Shown here: one piece after another, positions 17,181 through 58,701 of the stretch
Numbering within the stretch: the stretch's first letter is position 1
Layout of the letters: each line of letters opens with the position of its first letter
Sequence record: MK962753.1
DNA length: 64,000 bases
Direction: 5' to 3' (one strand)
DNA from: Shigella phage JK32
Program-made: the position numbers and the translations under genes
The notes under the pieces: model-generated
The model's input: the letters and a program-made list of their open reading frames with translations, nothing else
Told to the model about the DNA's origin: nothing
Databases searched by the model: none

Positions 17181-17209
17181 ATTATAGGGGATCGATGATC
17201 CCCTGTCAA
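17181..17209 (-). promoter_or_regulatory. early promoter with palindromic spacer
   Basis: TTGACA, spacer GGGGATCATCGATCCCC (17 nt, perfect palindrome), TATAAT. Confidence 0.7.
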
Positions 17210-19070: not shown

Positions 19071-19098
19071 AGTATAGGGGATCTCCCGATCCCCGTCA
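19071..19098 (-). promoter_or_regulatory. early promoter with palindromic spacer
   Basis: TTGACG, spacer GGGGATCGGGAGATCCCC-type palindrome, TATACT. Confidence 0.65.
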
Positions 19099-19114
19099 AC
19101 AACTTTTTTTAAAA

Positions 19115-23986: not shown

Positions 23987-24015
23987 AGTATAGGGGATCA
24001 CCGATCCCCTGTCAA
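23987..24015 (-). promoter_or_regulatory. early promoter with palindromic spacer
   Basis: TTGACA, spacer GGGGATCGGTGATCCCC, TATACT. Confidence 0.65.
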
Positions 24016-29793: not shown

Positions 29794-30963
29794 TTACCAA
29801 TCAATCTTATCAGCCGGAATTAGTTTCTTATAATTCCGTAGATAGTAAGTTTTCATTGAAGCCAGAATACGGTCATAATCAAGACCATCAAATGCAATCA
29901 TCAGACACATGAAAATATATGCTTGTGCATCACCATGTTTACGTGATTCGATAGTCGCATTGGATGCATATGTCTTTCTGTCTTCTCCCGCGTGTGCGTT
30001 ATAAAATTCTGTTGCTGTCGTGAAGGCATTGCGAAGAATAGACCTGAATGCTTCCTCGAATAGCTCGATTCGTTCCAGTGCTTCCGGTTCGCCTTCATAT
30101 GCAGCACGCAAATCATCGGTTTCACTTTCTACGACATAGTAGATCAGGTTATTAGGAAACATCGATGTGTTTTTAATGTTATGCACACCAATATACCATT
30201 CACTCTTCACCTTGAACATTTGACCGTCTTTAGTGCGTGCAACAATTCCTTCGATACCTTCTGCGGTCCGAACTTCATCAAGAATATTGCTAAAACGCGC
30301 TGAATCAACCTGTAACGCATTTACCAGATGAGGACGTAGGATTGCATCAGCAAATAGCATTTGATGCGGTACATACTCTCCTGTGACGTTATGGCGTACA
30401 TTCAGAAGTGTTAGCGACGGTTCAGAATATTCTACAACAATTCGGTTGCTGGGTGCTGTATATTCAAAGTTGAAAGTATAATCAGACCCGATATCGGCGA
30501 TCTTAGCGCGTAGATCCGCATACTTCTCTGAATACAGAAGACCGTTTGCTCTCTCCGCTTGGCTTGAGTACAAGGCCGCTTTAGACTTCAACTGAACATA
30601 GCCGTTATCAATGTATGTGCTTACTAGACTACCGTCCATTTTGTCCATGACCATTTCCACATCTTCCGGCTTAAAGCGAGAGCGTTCATTCTCACCTAAA
30701 TTAAAAAACTTCTCCATAGGACGAGATGCAATGCGGACAGGTCGGTCTTTATCATCGATTTCAAACATGATCCCGCGACACTCTAACGCATCTGGTTTAT
30801 TCCACATTTCCGGTTTGCTCAAGTACAAATAACTAAAAATGCGCATACGGGTTTGCATCGCCGTAATTTCATCTTTGTAATAGAACGTATCAGATCCGTC
30901 ACATAGTGTCATCAGATTTTTGAACAATGCTAAAACTTTTTTGTTGTTTTCTTTTGTTGACAT
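29794..30963 (-). CDS. rnlA: RNA ligase 1
   Basis: 389 aa; ligase motif KMDGSL and LECRGIMFE block as in T4 RnlA. Confidence 0.85.
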   Translation of the reverse strand: MSTKENNKKVLALFKNLMTLCDGSDTFYYKDEITAMQTRMRIFSYLYLSKPEMWNKPDALECRGIMFEIDDKDRPVRIASRPMEKFFNLGENERSRFKPEDVEMVMDKMDGSLVSTYIDNGYVQLKSKAALYSSQAERANGLLYSEKYADLRAKIADIGSDYTFNFEYTAPSNRIVVEYSEPSLTLLNVRHNVTGEYVPHQMLFADAILRPHLVNALQVDSARFSNILDEVRTAEGIEGIVARTKDGQMFKVKSEWYIGVHNIKNTSMFPNNLIYYVVESETDDLRAAYEGEPEALERIELFEEAFRSILRNAFTTATEFYNAHAGEDRKTYASNATIESRKHGDAQAYIFMCLMIAFDGLDYDRILASMKTYYLRNYKKLIPADKIDW

Positions 30964-31360
30964 AATTTGTGTTCCATTCTGGTTTAAATTTGGTGATCAA
31001 AACAGGTTCTTCGATATCGGCAGTGCTTATAATATCTTTACCCGTTGGATTCTCTATGTACAACTCAAAGCACTGGCGGTAATAGAATGTTACTGTCTTC
31101 CCTTCCTCTAGCGCCTTATGAATATTCTTACTCTTGCGAGTATCCGCCGTTGGTGTCTGTCTGTTAATGCTAGTCCGGTAATAGTTGATCCGCTTTCTGA
31201 GATTAACAGTCTGACCAATGTATACCAGTTCATCATCAACCGCAATAGCGTAAAGAACATTTAAACGGTTCTTCTGAGGCGGTAGAATCACATCACCATC
31301 TTTACACTCTAAACATGAATATTTAACGAATCCATAGTTTTCTATTAGCTCATTAATCAT
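30899..31360 (-). CDS. denA: endonuclease II (GIY-YIG family)
   Basis: Strong match to remembered T4 DenA (NVLYAIAVDDELVYIGQTVNLRKRINYYRT); SD GAGGAAAGGA. Confidence 0.85.
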   Translation of the reverse strand: MINELIENYGFVKYSCLECKDGDVILPPQKNRLNVLYAIAVDDELVYIGQTVNLRKRINYYRTSINRQTPTADTRKSKNIHKALEEGKTVTFYYRQCFELYIENPTGKDIISTADIEEPVLITKFKPEWNTNYVNKRKQQKSFSIVQKSDDTM

Positions 31361-31879: not shown

Positions 31880-32101
31880 CTACTTTTTAATGACAAGTTC
31901 GAATTTTGCTACCTTACGTCCTCGTTTATTGAAAGCAACCCACGGACGGTTTTCAATGTAGAACAATTCTTCACCAATAATGAATACTGGCTGATTGTAA
32001 AGGCGACCCATCAGGTCACGCTGGCGAATGGTAGTAGATTCGTATACTTCGCCTACTACAAAGTGTTTGCTGATAGAGTCGGTGCAGATAAATTTCATTT
32101 T
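31880..32101 (-). CDS. hypothetical small protein (73 aa), MK-x2-C family
   Basis: ATG at 32101 with SD GGAGAATC; paralogous to 34471..34638 and 59493..59699. Confidence 0.55.
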   Translation of the reverse strand, partial: KMKFICTDSISKHFVVGEVYESTTIRQRDLMGRLYNQPVFIIGEELFYIENRPWVAFNKRGRKVAKFELVIKK

Positions 32102-32126
32102 GATTCTCCTTTGTTTCGATGGGGGT

Positions 32127-32155
32127 ATATTACTACCCCCGCTATTCAGTGTCAA
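32127..32155 (-). promoter_or_regulatory. early promoter with inverted repeat around -10
   Basis: TTGACA, 17 nt, TAATAT; near-duplicate of promoter at 31851..31879. Confidence 0.6.
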
Positions 32156-32405: not shown

Positions 32406-32434
32406 ATTATGCTATGGTAAGATCCGATTGTCAA
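32406..32434 (-). promoter_or_regulatory. early promoter
   Basis: TTGACA, 17 nt, CATAAT. Confidence 0.65.
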
Positions 32435-32481: not shown

Positions 32482-32958
32482 TTAATCATGACCGTGATTT
32501 GCAATATCCGCTCGCGTCTTGTCTTTGTGATTTCCTACGTCAAAGACACGATAGCCGTTTTCTCTAAGAACTTTAATCACTTCTGGGTTATCCTCAAAGA
32601 CTCCGACAACTTCATCTTTATCAAAGGATTTAATTACCTCTAATTTGATGTGATAGTCTTTACGGGAATCGGTACGGCCTCTCATAAAGATTTTATCAAA
32701 ACACACTCCGTTAGAAATTAACCAATCAATTGTTTCCATGTAAGCATGTGAACTTCGTCCGGTGAGGATGTAAATCAAATGACCGTTGTCAGAAAGAGCA
32801 TTGATAACACGAATTACATCGTAAATGGGGGAATCTCCCCCACATGCCTTGTTATATTCGATCCATGACTCGACTTTATCAAGATTTTCGGTTGGCATCT
32901 TTGCTAGTCGATGCGTTGGATCTGTGATCGTAAAATCTAAATCGACAAAATATATCAT
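32482..32958 (-). CDS. HAD-superfamily phosphatase-like protein
   Basis: 158 aa; DLDFT motif I, LTGR motif II, Lys and FEDNPE motifs; ATGA coupling to nrdB. Confidence 0.55.
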   Translation of the reverse strand: MIYFVDLDFTITDPTHRLAKMPTENLDKVESWIEYNKACGGDSPIYDVIRVINALSDNGHLIYILTGRSSHAYMETIDWLISNGVCFDKIFMRGRTDSRKDYHIKLEVIKSFDKDEVVGVFEDNPEVIKVLRENGYRVFDVGNHKDKTRADIANHGHD

Positions 32959-34115
32959 AGATATTTCCCGAATCGGTTGTAGTCGTCGTCTGTTAAATCG
33001 GTATTAACCTGAGATACCAGATACATAATCTCTACTTCTTGCGCCGCGTTTTGAACTTCGTCAGAGTTCAACCATTTACGCATCCACGGTAAAGGATGAC
33101 GACGAACACTAAACGGGCTTTTCAGTCCGGCAGCACGCATACGGGAATCTGCCAGGTATTCTACATAGGTTTTCAGAATTTCCGGTGACAGGTTAGGAAT
33201 TGCCCCCATTGCGAATAGGTGGTCTACCCATTCTTTTTCTTGCTCGACAACATCCAGAAAGATTTTCGTTGCTTCGTCTTCAAGTTCTTCCGCAATCTGT
33301 TTCCACTCATCACCGTCAGCCCCCGTTTGCCATTGACGAATAATGTATTGTGTGCCTTTTAAGTGAAGTTGTTCATCACGCGCAATAAATTTCATGATCT
33401 TCGCGTTACCTTCCAGTAAACCACGTTCGGCAAAGCTGAAAGTACATGCAAAGGACACATAAAAACGGATTGCTTCCAAAGCATTAACGCAGTGTGCACA
33501 CAGATAAATCGACGCCATCAGATCTCGTTTTGTATCTTCAAAAAATCTTCTTGCATCATCTAATGCTGTCTGGTCTTCTCGGTCTTCCCAATAGCGGAGA
33601 TCTTCTTTTGCATTCTCATACTTACGAATCCAATAAAGAACATCATCATAATATTGCCCGATAGATTCCGCTCGCTTCATGATAGCAGGGTTATCGATGA
33701 TCTGGTCAAACTCACTAGCCGGATCAATGAAACAGTTACGCATAATGTGAGTATAACTGCGGCTATGAATTGTCTCGCTGAATGTCCATGTTTGCAACCA
33801 TGTATCGAGAGTCGGATCAGATACAATTGGACCAAATGCTGCGGACGGTGCGCGACCTTGAATAGAATCAAGTAATGTCTGATACTTCAAGTTTTCTGTA
33901 AAGAAACGTTTTTCAACATCGCCCATATTAAGATATTGAATACGGTCGGTTGCAAGTGAAATCTCTTCTGGACGCCAGAAAAATGACAGAGATTTTTCAA
34001 TTAATTCTTCAAATACTTGATGACGCTGAATATCATAGCGAGCGATACCCAACCCACTACCCAGAAACATTGGTTCGTTCATAATATCAACATGTTCGCG
34101 GTTAAATACGCTCAT
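32955..34115 (-). CDS. nrdB: ribonucleotide reductase small subunit
   Basis: 386 aa; diiron/tyrosyl-radical R2 fold features; SD GAGGTGA. Confidence 0.9.
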   Translation of the reverse strand: MSVFNREHVDIMNEPMFLGSGLGIARYDIQRHQVFEELIEKSLSFFWRPEEISLATDRIQYLNMGDVEKRFFTENLKYQTLLDSIQGRAPSAAFGPIVSDPTLDTWLQTWTFSETIHSRSYTHIMRNCFIDPASEFDQIIDNPAIMKRAESIGQYYDDVLYWIRKYENAKEDLRYWEDREDQTALDDARRFFEDTKRDLMASIYLCAHCVNALEAIRFYVSFACTFSFAERGLLEGNAKIMKFIARDEQLHLKGTQYIIRQWQTGADGDEWKQIAEELEDEATKIFLDVVEQEKEWVDHLFAMGAIPNLSPEILKTYVEYLADSRMRAAGLKSPFSVRRHPLPWMRKWLNSDEVQNAAQEVEIMYLVSQVNTDLTDDDYNRFGKYL

Positions 34116-34130
34116 TAATTCACCTCACTA

Positions 34131-34298
34131 TCACTTTTTAACACAAAAGAACTTAGTATTTCTGTTTATTTCTCTATCCTGTTGCAATTCCTGCATGGCT
34201 TCAAAACAACTTTGATGTGATGAAAACTCTACGCTGGTAACAGTTCCTTTATTATATACCCCGACACTAACGGAAAGCAATAACCATAATGTAGCCAT
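34131..34298 (-). CDS. hypothetical small protein (55 aa, below track cutoff), tandem paralog 1
   Basis: Hand-translated, starts MATLWLLLSVSVGVYNKG; start overlaps stop of upstream paralog (TAATGGCTAC junction). Confidence 0.4.
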   Translation of the reverse strand: MATLWLLLSVSVGVYNKGTVTSVEFSSHQSCFEAMQELQQDREINRNTKFFCVKK

Positions 34299-34471
34299 TA
34301 GTTCACCTTCTGCTTTTCAATGCAATACAGATTCATAAAGCGTTTATTGTCTTCGCGGATAATCTCGCGAGCTTTAACGCAATCCTGCTTTGTTGCAAAT
34401 TCAATGCTTGACATGTTTCCGTAATTATACATTGAATTGCTTATTGCAATCAATAACCATACAGTAGCCAT
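34298..34471 (-). CDS. hypothetical small protein (57 aa, below track cutoff), tandem paralog 2
   Basis: Hand-translated, starts MATVWLLIAISNSMYNYG; same TAATGGCTAC junction. Confidence 0.4.
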   Translation of the reverse strand: MATVWLLIAISNSMYNYGNMSSIEFATKQDCVKAREIIREDNKRFMNLYCIEKQKVN

Positions 34472-34638
34472 TATCCGACAACCTCAAAACATTTATCATC
34501 AGGAAGAATAGCCCATTCTACGCCGTATTCATCCTCAACGTAGTAGCAAGTCCCATCATGTCGAGCATCATATACATCACCGACAACAAAGCTATCAGCT
34601 AGCTCAAAATCTACAGCAACACATTTTAATTTTGCCAT
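34471..34638 (-). CDS. hypothetical small protein (55 aa), MK-x2-C family
   Basis: ATG at 34638 with SD GAGGA. Confidence 0.5.
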   Translation of the reverse strand: MAKLKCVAVDFELADSFVVGDVYDARHDGTCYYVEDEYGVEWAILPDDKCFEVVG

Positions 34639-34669: not shown

Positions 34670-34698
34670 ATTATAGCGGGGATTTCTCCCCGCGTCAA
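34670..34698 (-). promoter_or_regulatory. early promoter with palindromic spacer
   Basis: TTGACG, spacer CGGGGAGAAATCCCCGC, TATAAT. Confidence 0.65.
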
Positions 34699-34706
34699 CA
34701 CTTATT

Positions 34707-36950
34707 TTACAGTTTGCAAGATGAACATTCGCTAGCGTCTTCCGTACCATCAGCACCATCACGCACGTTAGCGTAATACAGTGTCTTGAGACCGTAATAT
34801 TGAGCAAACAACATATCATCTAATACATCAGCAATATCGACTTTACCAGTCTTATAAGTGCTTGGATCGTAGGATGTATTGGAACTAATCGCCTGATCTA
34901 CAAACTTCTGCATGATCGCTGCCAGTGTCAGATAAGGCTTGTTACCTTTCTTGATCAGTGTCCAAAGCAGGTCAATAACATCAGCATTATTCTCTACGTT
35001 CGGAATAACCTGATTAAATTGCCCTTCTTTCGATCCTTTAACCGATACAATCCCGCGAGGCGGTTCAATACCGTTTGTGCTGTTAGACACCTGAGAAGAC
35101 GACTCACAAGGCATCAGAGCCGAAAGCGTACTGTTACGAATGCCATATTTTTTCAGGTCTTCGCGCAGTTCTTCCCAATCCATCTCATACACCGGATCAA
35201 CCAGTTCATCTACTGTCTTTTTGTACCAGTCGATAGGCAGTTCACCGCGACCATAACGTGTTTCGTGCATCAGTTCGCAAGCACCCTTCTCTTTAGCCAG
35301 TTGCACACTAGCCTTAATCAGAGCATATTGCAAGCGTTCAAACGTTTTATGCGTAAACTCGTTAGCGTCTTCATATGTGAAGAAATTATCCGCCAGATAC
35401 GATGCAAAGTTAGTCACGCCAACACCCAGAGAGCGACGTTTTTTGGCTGTCAGAGCTTGTTCTACAGGATAATCCTGATAATCTAACAGGTTGTCAAGTG
35501 CACGCACCATAACCATAGCAATGCGTTCTACTTCTTCCATGTTTTCGATATCGAAATTACCTAAAACATATGCTGCCAAAGTACATAGGCTGATCTCTGA
35601 ATCATCACGCCCCATTGGTTTAGTAGGCAGTGCAATTTCGCAACACAGGTTAGATTGTTTAATCGGTGCTACATTGCGAATAAACGCCCCGTGATTGTTC
35701 ATGTTGTCTGTGAATGCTGGATAGATTCGACCAGTGTTAAAACGTTCAATCGCCACCGCTAAAAATAGGTCTTCGGCTTTAACACGAGTTTTACGAACAC
35801 TCGGATCTTTTTCCAGTTTTTCGTAAAGCTGGCGGAAACCTTCCTCATCTCGGAAGTACAGATCCCACAACAAGCCACCCGCAACATCTGGACTAAACAG
35901 AGTAATGTAATCCCGTTTAAGGAATCGCTCTACCATCAGGTTATTAATCTGTACGCCGTAATCAAGATGACGAATGCGGTTATCTTCTACCCCTTTGTTA
36001 TTCTTCAACACAATAAGACTTTCAAATTCTAAATGCCACATTGGGTAATAGAGAGTCGCTGCCCCGCCACGAATACCGCCTTGTGAGCATGACTTAACGG
36101 CAGTCTGAAAATGTTTCCAGAATGGGATAACGCCAGTATGACGAACTTCACCATGCCCGATCTTAGATCCTTCCGCGCGAATCATGCCAGCGTTGATACC
36201 GATACCAGCACGCTTGCTAATATACTTGATGATTGCATTTGCGGTTTCATTAATACCCTGCAATGAATCATCAGATTCGATCACCACACACGAACTAAAT
36301 TGTCGTGTTGGAGTACGCACACCCGCCATAATCGGAGTAGGCAGAGAGATTTGCTTATTCGCAACAGCATTATAAAAATCAATCACATGTTCAAGTCGAT
36401 TTTCTGTCTCTTCTTGATGTAAGCACATACCGATCAACATATACGCAAATTGCGGTGTTTCAATGATTTTCTTAGTGCTGCGATCCTGAACAAGATATTT
36501 CTCTTTTAACTGCATCGCACCCGCATAGGTCATTTTAAAATCAAGTTTATGGTCGATAAATTTCTCCAAATATTCCACTTCTTCACGGGAATACTTTTGC
36601 AGAATTTCACGATCATATTTTCCGGTTGCAATATTACGCTCAATATGGCTGTAAAAATCACTCGGTTGGAATTGACCGTATACTGATTTACGAAGCGCGA
36701 ACATTGCAAGGTTACTTGCTACATATTGATAATCAGGAGTTTCTACAGTGATGTTATCTGCGGCGACCTTAATCAATACTTTCTGGATATCATTGGTAGA
36801 CATACCTTCTGTCAGAAGTGGTTCAACCATATCAAACAATTCATATGGATCAACGTTATGACCTTCGGCTGCCGCTTCCAAAATTTTCATTACTTTTTCT
36901 TTTTCAAACGGAACAGTCAGACCGGAAGACTTAACAACATTTTTAATCAT
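34707..36950 (-). CDS. nrdA: ribonucleotide reductase large subunit
   Basis: 747 aa; N-terminal ATP-cone and catalytic Cys-containing blocks (NLCCEI, PCESS) typical of class Ia R1. Confidence 0.9.
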   Translation of the reverse strand: MIKNVVKSSGLTVPFEKEKVMKILEAAAEGHNVDPYELFDMVEPLLTEGMSTNDIQKVLIKVAADNITVETPDYQYVASNLAMFALRKSVYGQFQPSDFYSHIERNIATGKYDREILQKYSREEVEYLEKFIDHKLDFKMTYAGAMQLKEKYLVQDRSTKKIIETPQFAYMLIGMCLHQEETENRLEHVIDFYNAVANKQISLPTPIMAGVRTPTRQFSSCVVIESDDSLQGINETANAIIKYISKRAGIGINAGMIRAEGSKIGHGEVRHTGVIPFWKHFQTAVKSCSQGGIRGGAATLYYPMWHLEFESLIVLKNNKGVEDNRIRHLDYGVQINNLMVERFLKRDYITLFSPDVAGGLLWDLYFRDEEGFRQLYEKLEKDPSVRKTRVKAEDLFLAVAIERFNTGRIYPAFTDNMNNHGAFIRNVAPIKQSNLCCEIALPTKPMGRDDSEISLCTLAAYVLGNFDIENMEEVERIAMVMVRALDNLLDYQDYPVEQALTAKKRRSLGVGVTNFASYLADNFFTYEDANEFTHKTFERLQYALIKASVQLAKEKGACELMHETRYGRGELPIDWYKKTVDELVDPVYEMDWEELREDLKKYGIRNSTLSALMPCESSSQVSNSTNGIEPPRGIVSVKGSKEGQFNQVIPNVENNADVIDLLWTLIKKGNKPYLTLAAIMQKFVDQAISSNTSYDPSTYKTGKVDIADVLDDMLFAQYYGLKTLYYANVRDGADGTEDASECSSCKL

Positions 36951-37018
36951 ATTACCTCACTTCATATTTTAGCAGGAACAAGTTTATCCTCCATATTGGG
37001 GGCTTTCGCCCCCTTTGT

Positions 37019-38239
37019 TTATACTGCCATTTGAGCGGTGATCGCTGGATGGCTTTGATAGTTGTGAATTTTAAAGTCTTTCGGAGTCTTTGTCAATACC
37101 TCATCTAAAGACTTAAATTCCGGCAACTCAATTGTTGGTTTATCAAACGGAACACGGTTTAATTGTTCCATAACTTGATCAAAGTGGTTTTTGTAAATGT
37201 GAGTATCTCCACCAGAGAAAATCAGTTCTCCTACCTCAAGATCACACATTTTCGCTATGATGTGGGTTAAAAGTGCATAGCTGGCAACATTAAAGGGCAA
37301 GCCCAAAAAGCTGTCTACGCTTCTCTGAAACCACATACAAGACAGTTTACCTTCATTGACGTAGAATTGCACGAAAGGATGACATACACCTAACACAGCA
37401 TTATGTGTTCCTTGTACGTTCCATGAGTCAATAATGATCCGGCGATCCGTTGGATTGTTTTTAATTTGTTCAATCACGTTTTGTAACTGGTCTTCCCAAA
37501 TCTTCGGTCGATAGATATATTCTTCATCGTCTTTAGGGCTTGATGTGTCTACGTCCATATTAACAAAGATCGTGGTATCCGGTGCGAACATATCCCCACC
37601 CAGATAATCACTATCAAGCAGATAACCGAAATAACCATCATCTACCCATTCCTGGAATCCCCACAAGCAATATGCATCATTAACAAAATTAGATTGAGTC
37701 TTCCAGTGGTCTGCTACCAGAATATAATCAAACTCTTCATAACGCATACCACGCCAGATAGCACATAAACGGTCTTCTGTGTCATTGGTTGGCGTAAAGT
37801 CTTCTACCCACGGGTGCTTAAATGTATGTGTATATTTGCTCTTAACGCGCTTAATTTTGATTTCACCGTGTGGATGAATCGGTTTGCGTCGCCAAGCCAT
37901 ACCATACATATTGCCGACATTATAACCATTGAATCGCAAAGGATTCTTTTCTTTCATATCAAGACAGTTGCCGCGCCAAATGTCGAAGGCTTCTTCGTCA
38001 AACTTACCGCGTGTAATTTCCTGTAAGCGACGGCGGTCAAGTGATCCCTCCATAAACCATAGCAACTCGCCAATTACAGAGGCTGTAGCCATCTTTTTAG
38101 TGGTCAGTAAGGGGAAACCCTTGCTTAAATCGATTCGCATCTCTGCGCCGAATTTAGAGAGCGTACCTACCCCCGTGCGGTCTTCACGAGGCCAGCCATT
38201 ATCAAGAACATCACGCAACAGTTTCAAATATTCTTTCAT
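37019..38239 (-). CDS. td: thymidylate synthase with ~120-aa internal insertion
   Basis: N-terminal RTGTGT and C-terminal catalytic blocks conserved; 406 aa versus 286 aa in T4; insertion after the YG-x-WR block. Confidence 0.85.
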   Translation of the reverse strand: MKEYLKLLRDVLDNGWPREDRTGVGTLSKFGAEMRIDLSKGFPLLTTKKMATASVIGELLWFMEGSLDRRRLQEITRGKFDEEAFDIWRGNCLDMKEKNPLRFNGYNVGNMYGMAWRRKPIHPHGEIKIKRVKSKYTHTFKHPWVEDFTPTNDTEDRLCAIWRGMRYEEFDYILVADHWKTQSNFVNDAYCLWGFQEWVDDGYFGYLLDSDYLGGDMFAPDTTIFVNMDVDTSSPKDDEEYIYRPKIWEDQLQNVIEQIKNNPTDRRIIIDSWNVQGTHNAVLGVCHPFVQFYVNEGKLSCMWFQRSVDSFLGLPFNVASYALLTHIIAKMCDLEVGELIFSGGDTHIYKNHFDQVMEQLNRVPFDKPTIELPEFKSLDEVLTKTPKDFKIHNYQSHPAITAQMAV

Positions 38240-58672: not shown

Positions 58673-58701
58673 AGTATAGGGGATCGCCGATCCCCTGTCA
58701 A
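58673..58701 (-). promoter_or_regulatory. early promoter with palindromic spacer
   Basis: TTGACA, spacer GGGGATCGGCGATCCCC, TATACT. Confidence 0.65.

What the first reader, a model, noticed from the sequence alone, without database searches (positions are those of the whole stretch)
34131..34638. Unannotated tandem micro-genes between nrdA and nrdB with repeated TAATGGCTAC coupling junction
The 355-bp gap between nrdA-side and nrdB contains, downstream of a palindromic-spacer promoter, a 55-aa gene and then two paralogous ORFs of 57 and 55 aa (MATVWLLIAISNSMYNYG... and MATLWLLLSVSVGVYNKG...), both below the track cutoff, each starting with the A of the preceding TAA stop in the same junction sequence. 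The N-termini are hydrophobic, suggesting small membrane or secreted peptides. In T4 this interval is associated with small nrdA-proximal ORFs and mobile elements.
Basis: seen in the sequence. Interest (0 to 1): 0.5.

Follow-up and report, generated by a model that had tools for sequence, protein, structure and literature searches.

The report
Three small early genes between nrdA/nrdB
The three tiny genes between the two ribonucleotide-reductase genes of this RB49-like coliphage are real and conserved, but they are already annotated as hypothetical proteins in more than 50 related genomes. The two paralogs are predicted to be small soluble proteins of unknown function, not membrane or secreted peptides.

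Summary
The window is a Krischvirus (RB49-like, T4-type) genome read on the minus strand. Downstream of nrdA lie a sigma-70-type promoter with a hairpin in its spacer, a 55-aa gene (orfA), and two paralogs of 57 and 55 aa (orfB, orfC). Each paralog starts inside the preceding stop codon (TAATG). nrdB follows 15 nt later.

All three are already annotated: RB49p233, p232 and p231, and "hypothetical protein" in more than 50 genomes. The promoter-hairpin is a published PeSL element. The repeated 10-mer is only the TAATG overlap plus the shared Met-Ala-Thr codons.

orfB and orfC belong to phrog_5579, a phage miniprotein family found in T1-like, T7-like, lambdoid and jumbo phages. AlphaFold (pLDDT 92) gives a soluble beta-beta-alpha-beta fold in which the hydrophobic N-terminus is a strand and the most conserved segment. 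No family member reaches transmembrane hydrophobicity. Every member has exactly two cysteines, both invariant.

The genes are under purifying selection (dN/dS 0.07-0.23) but are dispensable. Relatives have fused orfB and orfC, pseudogenised orfA, or replaced orfB/orfC with a homing endonuclease. Function is unknown; most likely they are accessory early-expressed binding proteins. This is ordinary and already known, with one modest lead: the cysteine pair.

The parts
34707..36950 (-). nrdA, the class Ia ribonucleotide reductase large subunit (upstream flank)
   Evidence: 747-aa ORF. Annotated nrdA in RB49 and relatives.
34670..34698 (-). PeSL element. It has a sigma-70-type early promoter: -35 TTGACG at 34693-34698 and -10 TATAAT at 34670-34675. 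The 17-bp spacer is a G/C-rich hairpin at 34676-34693, with a 7-bp stem and a GAAA loop.
   Evidence: 11 of 12 match to the promoter consensus. The hairpin context folds at -21.2 kcal/mol, z=-4.8. It aligns with four other promoter-hairpin copies in the window. It is identical in 17 of 18 relatives checked. It is annotated 'terminator' in Ec_Makalu_003. The element class is described in PMC2839356.
34646..34650 (-). Shine-Dalgarno GAGGA of orfA
   Evidence: Read from the sequence, 7 nt before the ATG. Annotated as a ribosome-binding site in Makalu_003.
34471..34638 (-). orfA, 55 aa, acidic. It is an ORFan restricted to Krischvirus (phrog_16302; RB49p233).
   Evidence: dN/dS is 0.21. It is disrupted in JEP8, FL20 and G37-3.
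34464..34473 (-). Junction 1, TAATGGCTAC: the orfA TAA stop overlaps the orfB ATG
34298..34471 (-). orfB, 57 aa, a phrog_5579 miniprotein (RB49p232)
   Evidence: dN/dS is 0.07. It is absent or fused in FL20, G37-3, JSE and FL15.
34291..34300 (-). Junction 2, TAATGGCTAC: the orfB TAA stop overlaps the orfC ATG
34131..34298 (-). orfC, 55 aa, a phrog_5579 miniprotein (RB49p231). Predicted fold is beta-beta-alpha-beta, with invariant Cys31 and Cys52.
   Evidence: AlphaFold pLDDT is 91.9. dN/dS is 0.23.
32955..34115 (-). nrdB, the reductase small subunit. It starts 15 nt after the orfC stop, behind a GAGGTG Shine-Dalgarno, with no terminator between. It is probably co-transcribed with the three small genes.
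   Evidence: no terminator-like site on the minus strand between 34116 and 34640.

Best explanation
This is a known, PeSL-driven early gene cassette in the variable slot between nrdA and nrdB of a Krischvirus genome.

Shown by the sequence:
- A consensus sigma-70 promoter with a GC-rich hairpin in its spacer sits 9 nt after the nrdA stop.
- Three small genes follow, each with its own Shine-Dalgarno sequence.
- orfB and orfC begin inside the preceding stop codon (TAATG).
- nrdB follows 15 nt later with no terminator in between.

Inferred from published PeSL work:
- The hairpin attenuates read-through from nrdA.
- The promoter restarts host-RNA-polymerase transcription early in infection, giving one orfA-orfB-orfC-nrdB message.
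- The overlapping stop/start codons couple translation of the small genes.

The products:
- orfB and orfC are old, diverged paralogs (38% identity) of a widespread phage miniprotein family, phrog_5579.
- They are predicted to fold into a soluble 55-residue beta-beta-alpha-beta domain.
- The hydrophobic N-terminus is predicted to be a strand of the sheet, followed by the conserved S-x-G-x-Y-N-x-G loop.
- Two invariant cysteines sit in the first turn of the helix and in the last strand.
- orfA is a genus-restricted acidic ORFan.

All three genes are accessory. They are under purifying selection where present, yet are repeatedly lost, fused or replaced in relatives.

Most likely function (inferred, about 40-50%): small cytoplasmic proteins made early in infection that bind and modulate a host or phage protein. 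In that reading the conserved strand-loop is the contact surface, and the cysteine pair acts as a structural staple, a metal ligand or a redox site.

The repeated TAATGGCTAC is a by-product of paralogy plus stop/start overlap. It doubles as a substrate for the recombination that collapses the two copies into one.

The confidence of 0.78 applies to the anatomy and to the reading of the products as soluble accessory miniproteins. The specific binder function is held at about 40-50%.
For: Identity and prior annotation:
- The region is 95-99% identical to 58 Krischvirus records.
- The three genes are annotated as CDSs RB49p233, p232 and p231, and likewise.

PeSL:
- The promoter matches the consensus.
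- The hairpin is stable.
- The element aligns with four other copies in the window, sharing an A-rich upstream region, GTTGAC, a G-tract/C-tract stem, TATAMT and a downstream Shine-Dalgarno.
- Promoter activity was measured for PeSL193/192 and PeSL206/205, and terminator activity for the PeSL211/210 stem-loop, in PMC2839356.

Coding status:
- The paralogs match each other at E=6e-16 and match PHROG families.
- dN/dS is 0.205, 0.068 and 0.231 for orfA, orfB and orfC. The neighbouring nrdA and nrdB segments give 0.013 and 0.041.

Family:
- 45 representative clusters match at E<=1e-3.
- F25, C31 and C50/52 are invariant. W5, L7 and G18 are conserved in at least 90% of members.
- There are exactly 2 Cys in all 43 members: 0 other Cys against about 33 expected.

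Fold:
- pLDDT 91.9, with strands 5-11, 20-25 and 48-54 and a helix at 28-39.
- The N-terminal strand has the lowest column entropy of any segment.

Dispensability:
- FL20 and G37-3 carry a single orfB/orfC chimera, with the crossover in the shared TATGGTTATTG.
- JSE and FL15 have a homing endonuclease in place of orfB and orfC.
- orfA carries stops or frameshifts in JEP8, FL20 and G37-3.

Synteny:
- A divergent ortholog (49% identity to orfC) sits directly upstream of an nrdB fragment closely similar to the window's, with the same TAATG coupling.
Against: - No expression data exist for these genes.
- Co-transcription with nrdB and translational coupling are read from the sequence, not measured.
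- This particular PeSL was not among those tested experimentally.
- The hairpin is not followed by a U-tract.
- The structure is a prediction from a 30-sequence alignment. I could not inspect the coordinates, so the Cys-Cys distance and the oligomeric state are unknown.
- A strict two-cysteine pattern is more typical of disulfide-bonded extracytoplasmic proteins or redox proteins than of generic cytoplasmic binders.
Confidence: 0.78

Rival explanations
1. orfB and orfC are exported or membrane-anchored peptides. In this reading the N-terminal hydrophobic stretch is a short signal or anchor sequence. The roughly 40-residue remainder would be a periplasmic domain stapled by a C31-C52 disulfide.
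For: - The N-terminus is hydrophobic.
- Every family member has exactly two cysteines and no others, which is typical of disulfide-bonded extracytoplasmic proteins.
- The conserved S11-x-G13 could serve as a -3/-1 signal-peptidase site.
Against: - The hydrophobic core is only 8-11 residues long.
- The maximum 19-residue Kyte-Doolittle value is 0.61 for orfB and 1.07 for orfC. None of 43 members reaches 1.6.
- 38 of 43 members have no K or R in the first six residues.
- The segment is the most conserved part of the protein in a position-specific way: W5 91%, L7 98%, S11 90%. That is the opposite of how cleaved signal peptides evolve.
- AlphaFold builds the segment into the sheet at pLDDT about 88-90.
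- The MzrA alignment covers 52 of 55 residues, so it includes this strand.
Confidence: 0.12
2. The family is a redox-active or metal-binding miniprotein tied to nucleotide metabolism. It might be a dithiol partner or regulator of the ribonucleotide reductase whose genes flank it.
For: - The invariant Cys pair, with all other cysteines excluded.
- By the predicted secondary structure, Cys31 sits in the first turn of a helix directly after a strand. From my own knowledge, that is the usual geometry of reactive thiols in redoxins.
- Family members lie next to RNR genes in Krischvirus and in two unrelated metagenomic phage contexts.
- They also lie next to a HAD_PNKP phosphatase or a dNMP kinase in T1-like phages.
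Against: - There is no CxxC motif and no Pfam or NCBIfam match.
- The family also occurs in phages without RNR: T1-like, Koutsourovirus, the lambdoid nin region, and next to Dam or a helicase.
- Only 13 of 80 HAD_PNKP loci carry a family member within 3 kb.
- JSE and FL15 keep nrdA and nrdB but lack both paralogs.
- Early phage genes cluster with nucleotide-metabolism genes anyway.
Confidence: 0.06
3. The small ORFs are chance reading frames or decaying remnants, and the interval is only a regulatory spacer or leader for nrdB.
For: - The genes are very short.
- orfA is pseudogenised in several relatives.
- The interval is variable between relatives.
Against: - The two paralogs match each other at E=6e-16 and give full-length PHROG matches.
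- dN/dS is 0.07-0.23, with an excess of third-position variation.
- Homologs with invariant residues occur in unrelated phage families.
- The fold prediction is confident.
- There is no Rfam match in the interval.
Confidence: 0.01

Closest known systems
PeSL (promoter-early stem-loop) cassettes of RB49/Phi1 (Arbiol et al. 2010, PMC2839356; Comeau et al. 2014, PMC4122927)
   Same: - A consensus sigma-70 promoter with a G-tract/C-tract hairpin between -35 and -10.
- An A-rich upstream region and a downstream Shine-Dalgarno plus ATG.
- Repeated in the genome: at least four more copies in this window.
- Precedes small ORFan genes.
   Different: - Only one PeSL flanks this cassette, because nrdB follows directly. 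The published mini-circle excision between two flanking PeSLs does not obviously apply.
- The copy-number change seen here goes through recombination between the two paralogs instead.
- I did not find this specific PeSL mentioned in the paper text.
The T4 nrdA-nrdB interval (mobE, nrdB.1)
   Same: - It is the same slot between the two reductase genes, occupied by non-essential and mobile genes.
- A small ORF overlaps the start of nrdB.
- Some Krischvirus relatives carry homing-endonuclease genes here (PMC2790892).
   Different: - The T4 occupants are unrelated in sequence. NrdB.1 against the family profile gives an hhalign probability of 0.2%.
- In this window the slot contains no endonuclease.
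phrog_5579 (uncharacterised phage protein family)
   Same: orfB and orfC match the profile end to end, at E=2e-23 and 7e-24.
   Different: There is no real difference: they are members. The family has no assigned function, no Pfam or NCBIfam model and no solved structure.
MzrA periplasmic domain (PDB 4pwu) and other small ferredoxin-like alpha/beta domains, including ClpS, PII-like proteins and some anti-CRISPRs
   Different: - Sequence identity is 13%, and there is no sequence-level match.
- Foldseek against PDB is non-significant.
- The hits are a generic fold class spanning many unrelated functions.

Membership tests
PeSL (promoter-early stem-loop) element | Sigma-70 consensus -35 and -10 hexamers at 17-bp spacing | tested here: met
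   TTGACG-N17-TATAAT, 11 of 12 positions
PeSL (promoter-early stem-loop) element | A stable polyG/polyC stem-loop between or overlapping the promoter hexamers | tested here: met
   GCGGGGA-GAAA-TCCCCGC lies within the spacer. The 73-nt context folds at -21.2 kcal/mol, z=-4.8.
PeSL (promoter-early stem-loop) element | A repeated motif in the genome, alignable over the A-rich upstream region, the promoter and the Shine-Dalgarno | tested here: met
   It aligns with the copies at 17181, 19071, 23987 and 58673. There are 38 invariant columns.
PeSL (promoter-early stem-loop) element | Measured promoter and terminator activity | not testable with these tools
   Promoter activity was shown for PeSL193/192 and PeSL206/205, and terminator activity for the PeSL211/210 stem-loop, in PMC2839356. 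This copy was not tested.
phrog_5579 | Full-length match to the family profile | tested here: met
   orfB residues 2-53 match profile positions 1-52 at E=2e-23. orfC residues 2-55 match at E=6.6e-24.
Transmembrane or Sec-exported small peptide | A hydrophobic segment long enough to span the membrane (19-residue Kyte-Doolittle value of at least 1.6) | tested here: not met
   The maxima are 0.61 (orfB) and 1.07 (orfC). The family maximum is 1.43, and 0 of 43 members pass.
Transmembrane or Sec-exported small peptide | A positively charged n-region before the hydrophobic core | tested here: not met
   orfB and orfC have no K or R in the first six residues. Only 5 of 43 family members have one.
Transmembrane or Sec-exported small peptide | Export and cleavage shown experimentally or by a trained predictor | not testable with these tools
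   No SignalP or TMHMM was available. The AlphaFold strand assignment and the conservation profile argue against export.
Thioredoxin-fold redoxin (NrdH, glutaredoxin, T4 NrdC) | A CxxC active site and a thioredoxin-fold profile match | tested here: not met
   The cysteines are 15-27 residues apart. There is no Pfam or NCBIfam hit.
Free-standing homing endonuclease (mobE-like) | An HNH or GIY-YIG nuclease domain encoded in the nrdA-nrdB interval | tested here: not met
   None of the three window ORFs has such a domain. Relatives G5211, G37-3, JSE and FL15 do carry one here.

The most novel reading that the evidence does not exclude
The phrog_5579 miniproteins could be a previously unrecognised class of about 55-residue dithiol/disulfide or metal-bridging proteins that phages place in their nucleotide-metabolism modules next to RNR, ThyX, HAD phosphatase or dNMP kinase genes. 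They might act as a non-thioredoxin-fold redox partner or redox-sensing regulator of deoxynucleotide synthesis. The evidence does not exclude this. The points in favour are the invariant Cys pair with total exclusion of other cysteines, a Cys in the first helical turn after a strand, and repeated RNR adjacency.
Probability: 0.06. Interest if true: 0.6.

Novelty: already known. Interest (0 to 1): 0.2.

Why it matters
It matters little for genome annotation. The genes, their family and the promoter-hairpin element are all already on record.

The modest value is descriptive. This uncharacterised phage miniprotein family now has:
- a confident predicted fold;
- a defined signature, W-L-L...S-x-G-x-Y-N-x-G...F...C...C, with exactly two cysteines;
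- evidence that it is soluble rather than membrane-bound;
- evidence that it is sporadically missed by gene callers in T1-like and T7-like phages.

The locus is also a clean natural example of three processes in the hyperplastic slot between two essential T4-type genes: gene-copy collapse by recombination between tandem paralogs, pseudogenisation, and replacement by a homing endonuclease.

Tried and rejected
1. Pfam, NCBIfam and PDB sequence searches found nothing for orfB, orfC or the 43-member family alignment.

2. Fold searches gave only generic small alpha/beta hits.
- Foldseek against PDB: nothing below E=0.4.
- BFVD: only uncharacterised phage proteins.
- The afdb50 library was not available.

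3. An obligate link to the HAD_PNKP phosphatase is rejected.
- The window's phosphatase downstream of nrdB is 39% identical to the T1-like 'pnk'.
- That gene is directly followed by a family member in Henu7, pSf-1 and Motto.
- However, only 13 of 80 HAD_PNKP loci have a family member within 3 kb.

4. T4 NrdB.1 as a homolog is rejected.

5. A structured RNA or riboswitch in the interval is rejected: no Rfam match at E<=1.

6. No further family copies exist in the 64-kb window.

7. The multi-repeat hits P0015 (775 aa, 10 repeats) and P0044 look like translated tandem-repeat DNA whose score is inflated by summing weak repeats. I treated them as spurious.

8. A recent in-situ duplication is not supported. 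orfB and orfC each have closer relatives elsewhere (51%) than each other (38%), and they are not sisters in a neighbour-joining tree. The sequences are short, so resolution is low.

9. Scanning bacterial genomes with the family alignment failed because no conserved block was long enough.

10. Literature searches for the locus tags, phrog_5579 and Krischvirus transcriptomes found nothing.

Full report
**What the window is.** The 621 bases spanning the finding are 95-99% identical to 58 phage records, all Krischvirus (RB49-like, T4-type coliphages). 52 of them align over at least 80% of the query. The genes lie on the minus strand.

**Anatomy.**
- nrdA ends at 34707.
- A promoter follows: TTGACG, a 17-bp spacer, then TATAAT at 34670-34698.
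- The spacer is the hairpin GCGGGGA-GAAA-TCCCCGC.
- orfA starts at the ATG at 34638, behind a GAGGA Shine-Dalgarno, and ends at 34471 (55 aa).
- The mechanical ORF list extends orfA to a GTG at 34701. That start lies inside the promoter. The RB49 annotation uses the ATG.
- orfB is 34298-34471 (57 aa).
- orfC is 34131-34298 (55 aa).
- nrdB starts at 34115, 15 nt after the orfC stop, behind GAGGTG.
- Both small-gene junctions read TAATGGCTAC. This 10-mer occurs only at these two sites in the window, against 0.09 expected.

**The genes are real.**
- orfB and orfC align at 36% identity over their full length, E=6e-16.
- Both match phrog_5579 end to end. orfA matches phrog_16302.
- I compared 11-14 distinct Krischvirus sequences using pooled Nei-Gojobori estimates. 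These are not corrected for phylogeny.
- dN/dS is 0.205 for orfA, 0.068 for orfB and 0.231 for orfC. The flanking 100 codons give 0.013 for nrdA and 0.041 for nrdB. Variable sites concentrate at third codon positions.
- There is no Rfam match in the interval.

**The genes are not unannotated.** RB49 lists them as RB49p233, p232 and p231. Phi1 lists them as ORF233, 232 and 231. Nearly all other Krischvirus records call them 'hypothetical protein', and Ec_Makalu_003 adds ribosome-binding sites and a terminator.

**The 'palindromic-spacer promoter' is a PeSL.**
- The window holds at least four more copies of the same design, for example TTGACAGGGGATCGGTGATCCCCTATACT.
- These copies align with the nrdA-orfA element across the A-rich upstream region, GTTGAC, the G/C stem, TATAMT and the downstream Shine-Dalgarno.
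- Arbiol et al. 2010 described these promoter-early stem-loops in RB49 and Phi1.
- They showed promoter activity for PeSL193/192 and PeSL206/205 and terminator/attenuator activity for the PeSL211/210 stem-loop. They proposed that PeSLs mediate shuffling of ORFan genes (PMC2839356; PMC4122927).
- The hairpin context here folds at -21.2 kcal/mol, z=-4.8.
- The element is identical in 17 of 18 relatives checked.
- No terminator-like site lies between the promoter and nrdB on the minus strand.
- The simplest reading is one early transcript covering orfA, orfB, orfC and nrdB. This is inferred, not measured.

**The repeated junction.** TAATGGCTAC is TA plus ATG-GCT-AC. It is the stop/start overlap plus the shared Met-Ala-Thr codons of two paralogs, not a separate signal. 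It does matter for genome dynamics:
- FL20 and G37-3 carry a single chimeric gene, MATVWLLLSVSVG... It has the orfB-type start and an orfC-type body. The crossover lies in the shared TATGGTTATTG, and exactly one repeat unit is deleted.
- A 44-aa orfB/orfC chimera lacking the helix also exists in metagenomes (P0014).

**The slot is variable and the genes are dispensable.** The architectures seen are:
- A-B-C: orfB is present in 52 of the 58 Krischvirus records.
- A(pseudogene)-B/C chimera: FL20.
- A(pseudogene)-B/C chimera-HNH endonuclease: G37-3.
- A-B-C-HNH endonuclease: G5211.
- A-homing endonuclease, with orfB and orfC absent: JSE and FL15.

orfA carries a premature stop in JEP8. It is broken in FL20 and G37-3 and probably in FL04, kaaroe and FL37. 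It has no relatives outside Krischvirus.

T4 uses the same interval for mobE and nrdB.1 (PMC2790892). NrdB.1 is unrelated to this family. T4's nrdA.1 and nrdA.2 lie upstream of nrdA.

**The orfB/orfC family.**
- A profile search of 1.8 billion representative proteins found 45 clusters at E<=1e-3, almost all 50-70 aa long.
- In a 43-sequence alignment F25, C31 and C50/52 are invariant. W5, L7 and G18 are conserved in at least 90% of members.
- Members occur in:
  - T1-like Drexlerviridae: Henu7, where the gene is unannotated; pSf-1, which has two copies; and Motto;
  - a Koutsourovirus (T7-like), where it is also unannotated;
  - Vibrio phages;
  - an Erwinia jumbo phage;
  - lambdoid nin regions;
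  - other metagenomic phages.
- orfB and orfC each have closer relatives elsewhere (51%) than each other (38%). They are not sisters in a neighbour-joining tree. They are therefore old paralogs or separate acquisitions.
- A 49%-identical ortholog of orfC sits directly upstream of an nrdB fragment closely similar to the window's, with the same TAATG coupling. The position is older than the genus-level identity, and the gene evolves much faster than nrdB.

**Structure and location.**
- With a 9-sequence alignment AlphaFold was unconvincing, at pLDDT 65.
- With 30 diverse family members it gave pLDDT 91.9 and pTM 0.71. The model has strands at 5-11, 20-25 and 48-54 and a helix at 28-39.
- The hydrophobic N-terminus is therefore predicted to be a strand of a three-stranded sheet.

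Independent checks agree:
- The maximum 19-residue Kyte-Doolittle hydropathy is 0.61 for orfB and 1.07 for orfC. No member among the 43 reaches 1.6.
- 38 of 43 members lack K or R in the first six residues.
- Residues 3-11 have the lowest column entropy of any segment, 1.42 bits against 2.4-3.3 for the helix, the 40-47 linker and the last strand. Conservation is position-specific. Cleaved signal peptides evolve the opposite way.
- The membrane or secreted reading is therefore not supported. No trained signal-peptide predictor was available, so it is not fully excluded.

Fold searches found nothing specific:
- Foldseek against PDB was non-significant.
- BFVD returned only uncharacterised phage proteins.

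**The one unexplained feature.** All 43 family members contain exactly two cysteines, both invariant. Given the window's 1.29% Cys background, about 33 additional cysteines would be expected, and none is seen. By the predicted secondary structure, Cys31 lies in the first helical turn after strand 2 and Cys52 lies near the end of strand 3. They are plausibly close in space, but I could not inspect the coordinates. The pattern suggests a disulfide, a reactive dithiol, or a metal site shared across a dimer.

Together with gene neighbourhood, this keeps a low-probability redox reading alive:
- Family members sit beside RNR genes in Krischvirus and in two other metagenomic contexts.
- They sit beside a HAD_PNKP phosphatase or a dNMP kinase in T1-like phages.

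Against that reading:
- Many members are in phages without RNR.
- JSE and FL15 keep RNR without them.
- Only 13 of 80 HAD_PNKP loci carry a family member nearby.
- There is no CxxC motif or redoxin profile match.

**Verdict.**
- It is partly wrong: the genes are not unannotated in public records, and they are probably not membrane or secreted peptides.
- The locus is an already-known PeSL-driven early accessory cassette.
- The function of its products remains unknown.
- My committed guess, at about 40-50%, is small cytoplasmic binding or modulating proteins made early in infection.
- The exported-peptide rival is at about 12% and the redox/nucleotide-metabolism reading at about 6%.

Noticed in passing
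window 17181-17209, 19071-19099, 23987-24015, 58673-58701 (minus strand): Four more PeSL-type promoter-hairpin elements (TTGACAGGGGATC....GATCCCCTATAMT). They align with the nrdA-orfA element and mark hyperplastic regions of the genome.
   Followed up: partly
window 37019-38239 (minus strand): The thymidylate synthase gene encodes 406 aa. It matches the 266-position Pfam profile in two stretches: residues 250-406 match profile positions 110-266. That implies an internal insertion of roughly 130 residues of unknown nature.
   Followed up: partly
window 32482-32958 (minus strand): A stand-alone HAD_PNKP phosphatase-domain protein (158 aa, no kinase domain) overlaps the nrdB stop. It is 39% identical (E=1e-33) to the 'polynucleotide kinase' of T1-like phages. 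In Henu7, pSf-1 and Motto that gene is directly followed by a phrog_5579 family member.
   Followed up: yes
L006 2501-2656 (Henu7, NC_054894, 20357-20512) and L005 2501-2671 (Enterobacter phage SDFMU_EhYP, OQ884031, 2644-2814): Clear phrog_5579 family genes (51 and 56 aa, HMM E=5e-12 and 6e-22) are not annotated in these public records. Gene callers miss the family sporadically.
   Followed up: partly
window 30899-31360 (minus strand): A 153-aa ORF has a borderline GIY-YIG nuclease-domain match (22.8 bits against a cutoff of 22.6). It may be a seg-like homing endonuclease or a remnant of one.
   Followed up: no
window 31880-32155 (minus strand): The N-terminal part of this small ORF (KMKFICTD-SISKHFVVGEVYE) resembles the orfA N-terminus (KLKCVAVDFELADSFVVGDVYD), pairwise E=4e-4 over 23 residues. 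It may be a second, distant copy of the orfA type. It is preceded by a promoter-like site at 32406-32434.
   Followed up: partly
window 36998-37013: A perfect palindromic hairpin, GGGGGC-GAAA-GCCCCC on the gene strand, lies between td and nrdA. It has a GNRA-type loop like the PeSL hairpin but no promoter hexamers around it. A promoter-like TTGACA-N17-TAAAAT lies just upstream, inside the 3' end of td (37068-37096).
   Followed up: no
proteins P0015 (775 aa) and P0044 (351 aa): These long proteins are made of 10 and 5 tandem repeats that each weakly match the family profile. They look like translated tandem-repeat DNA whose score is inflated by summing weak repeat matches, not true multi-domain relatives.
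   Followed up: partly
L022 (Shigella phage pSf-1) 2501-2653 and 3709-3870: A T1-like phage also carries two phrog_5579 copies, about 1 kb apart rather than in tandem. Paired copies of this family therefore recur outside Krischvirus.
   Followed up: partly
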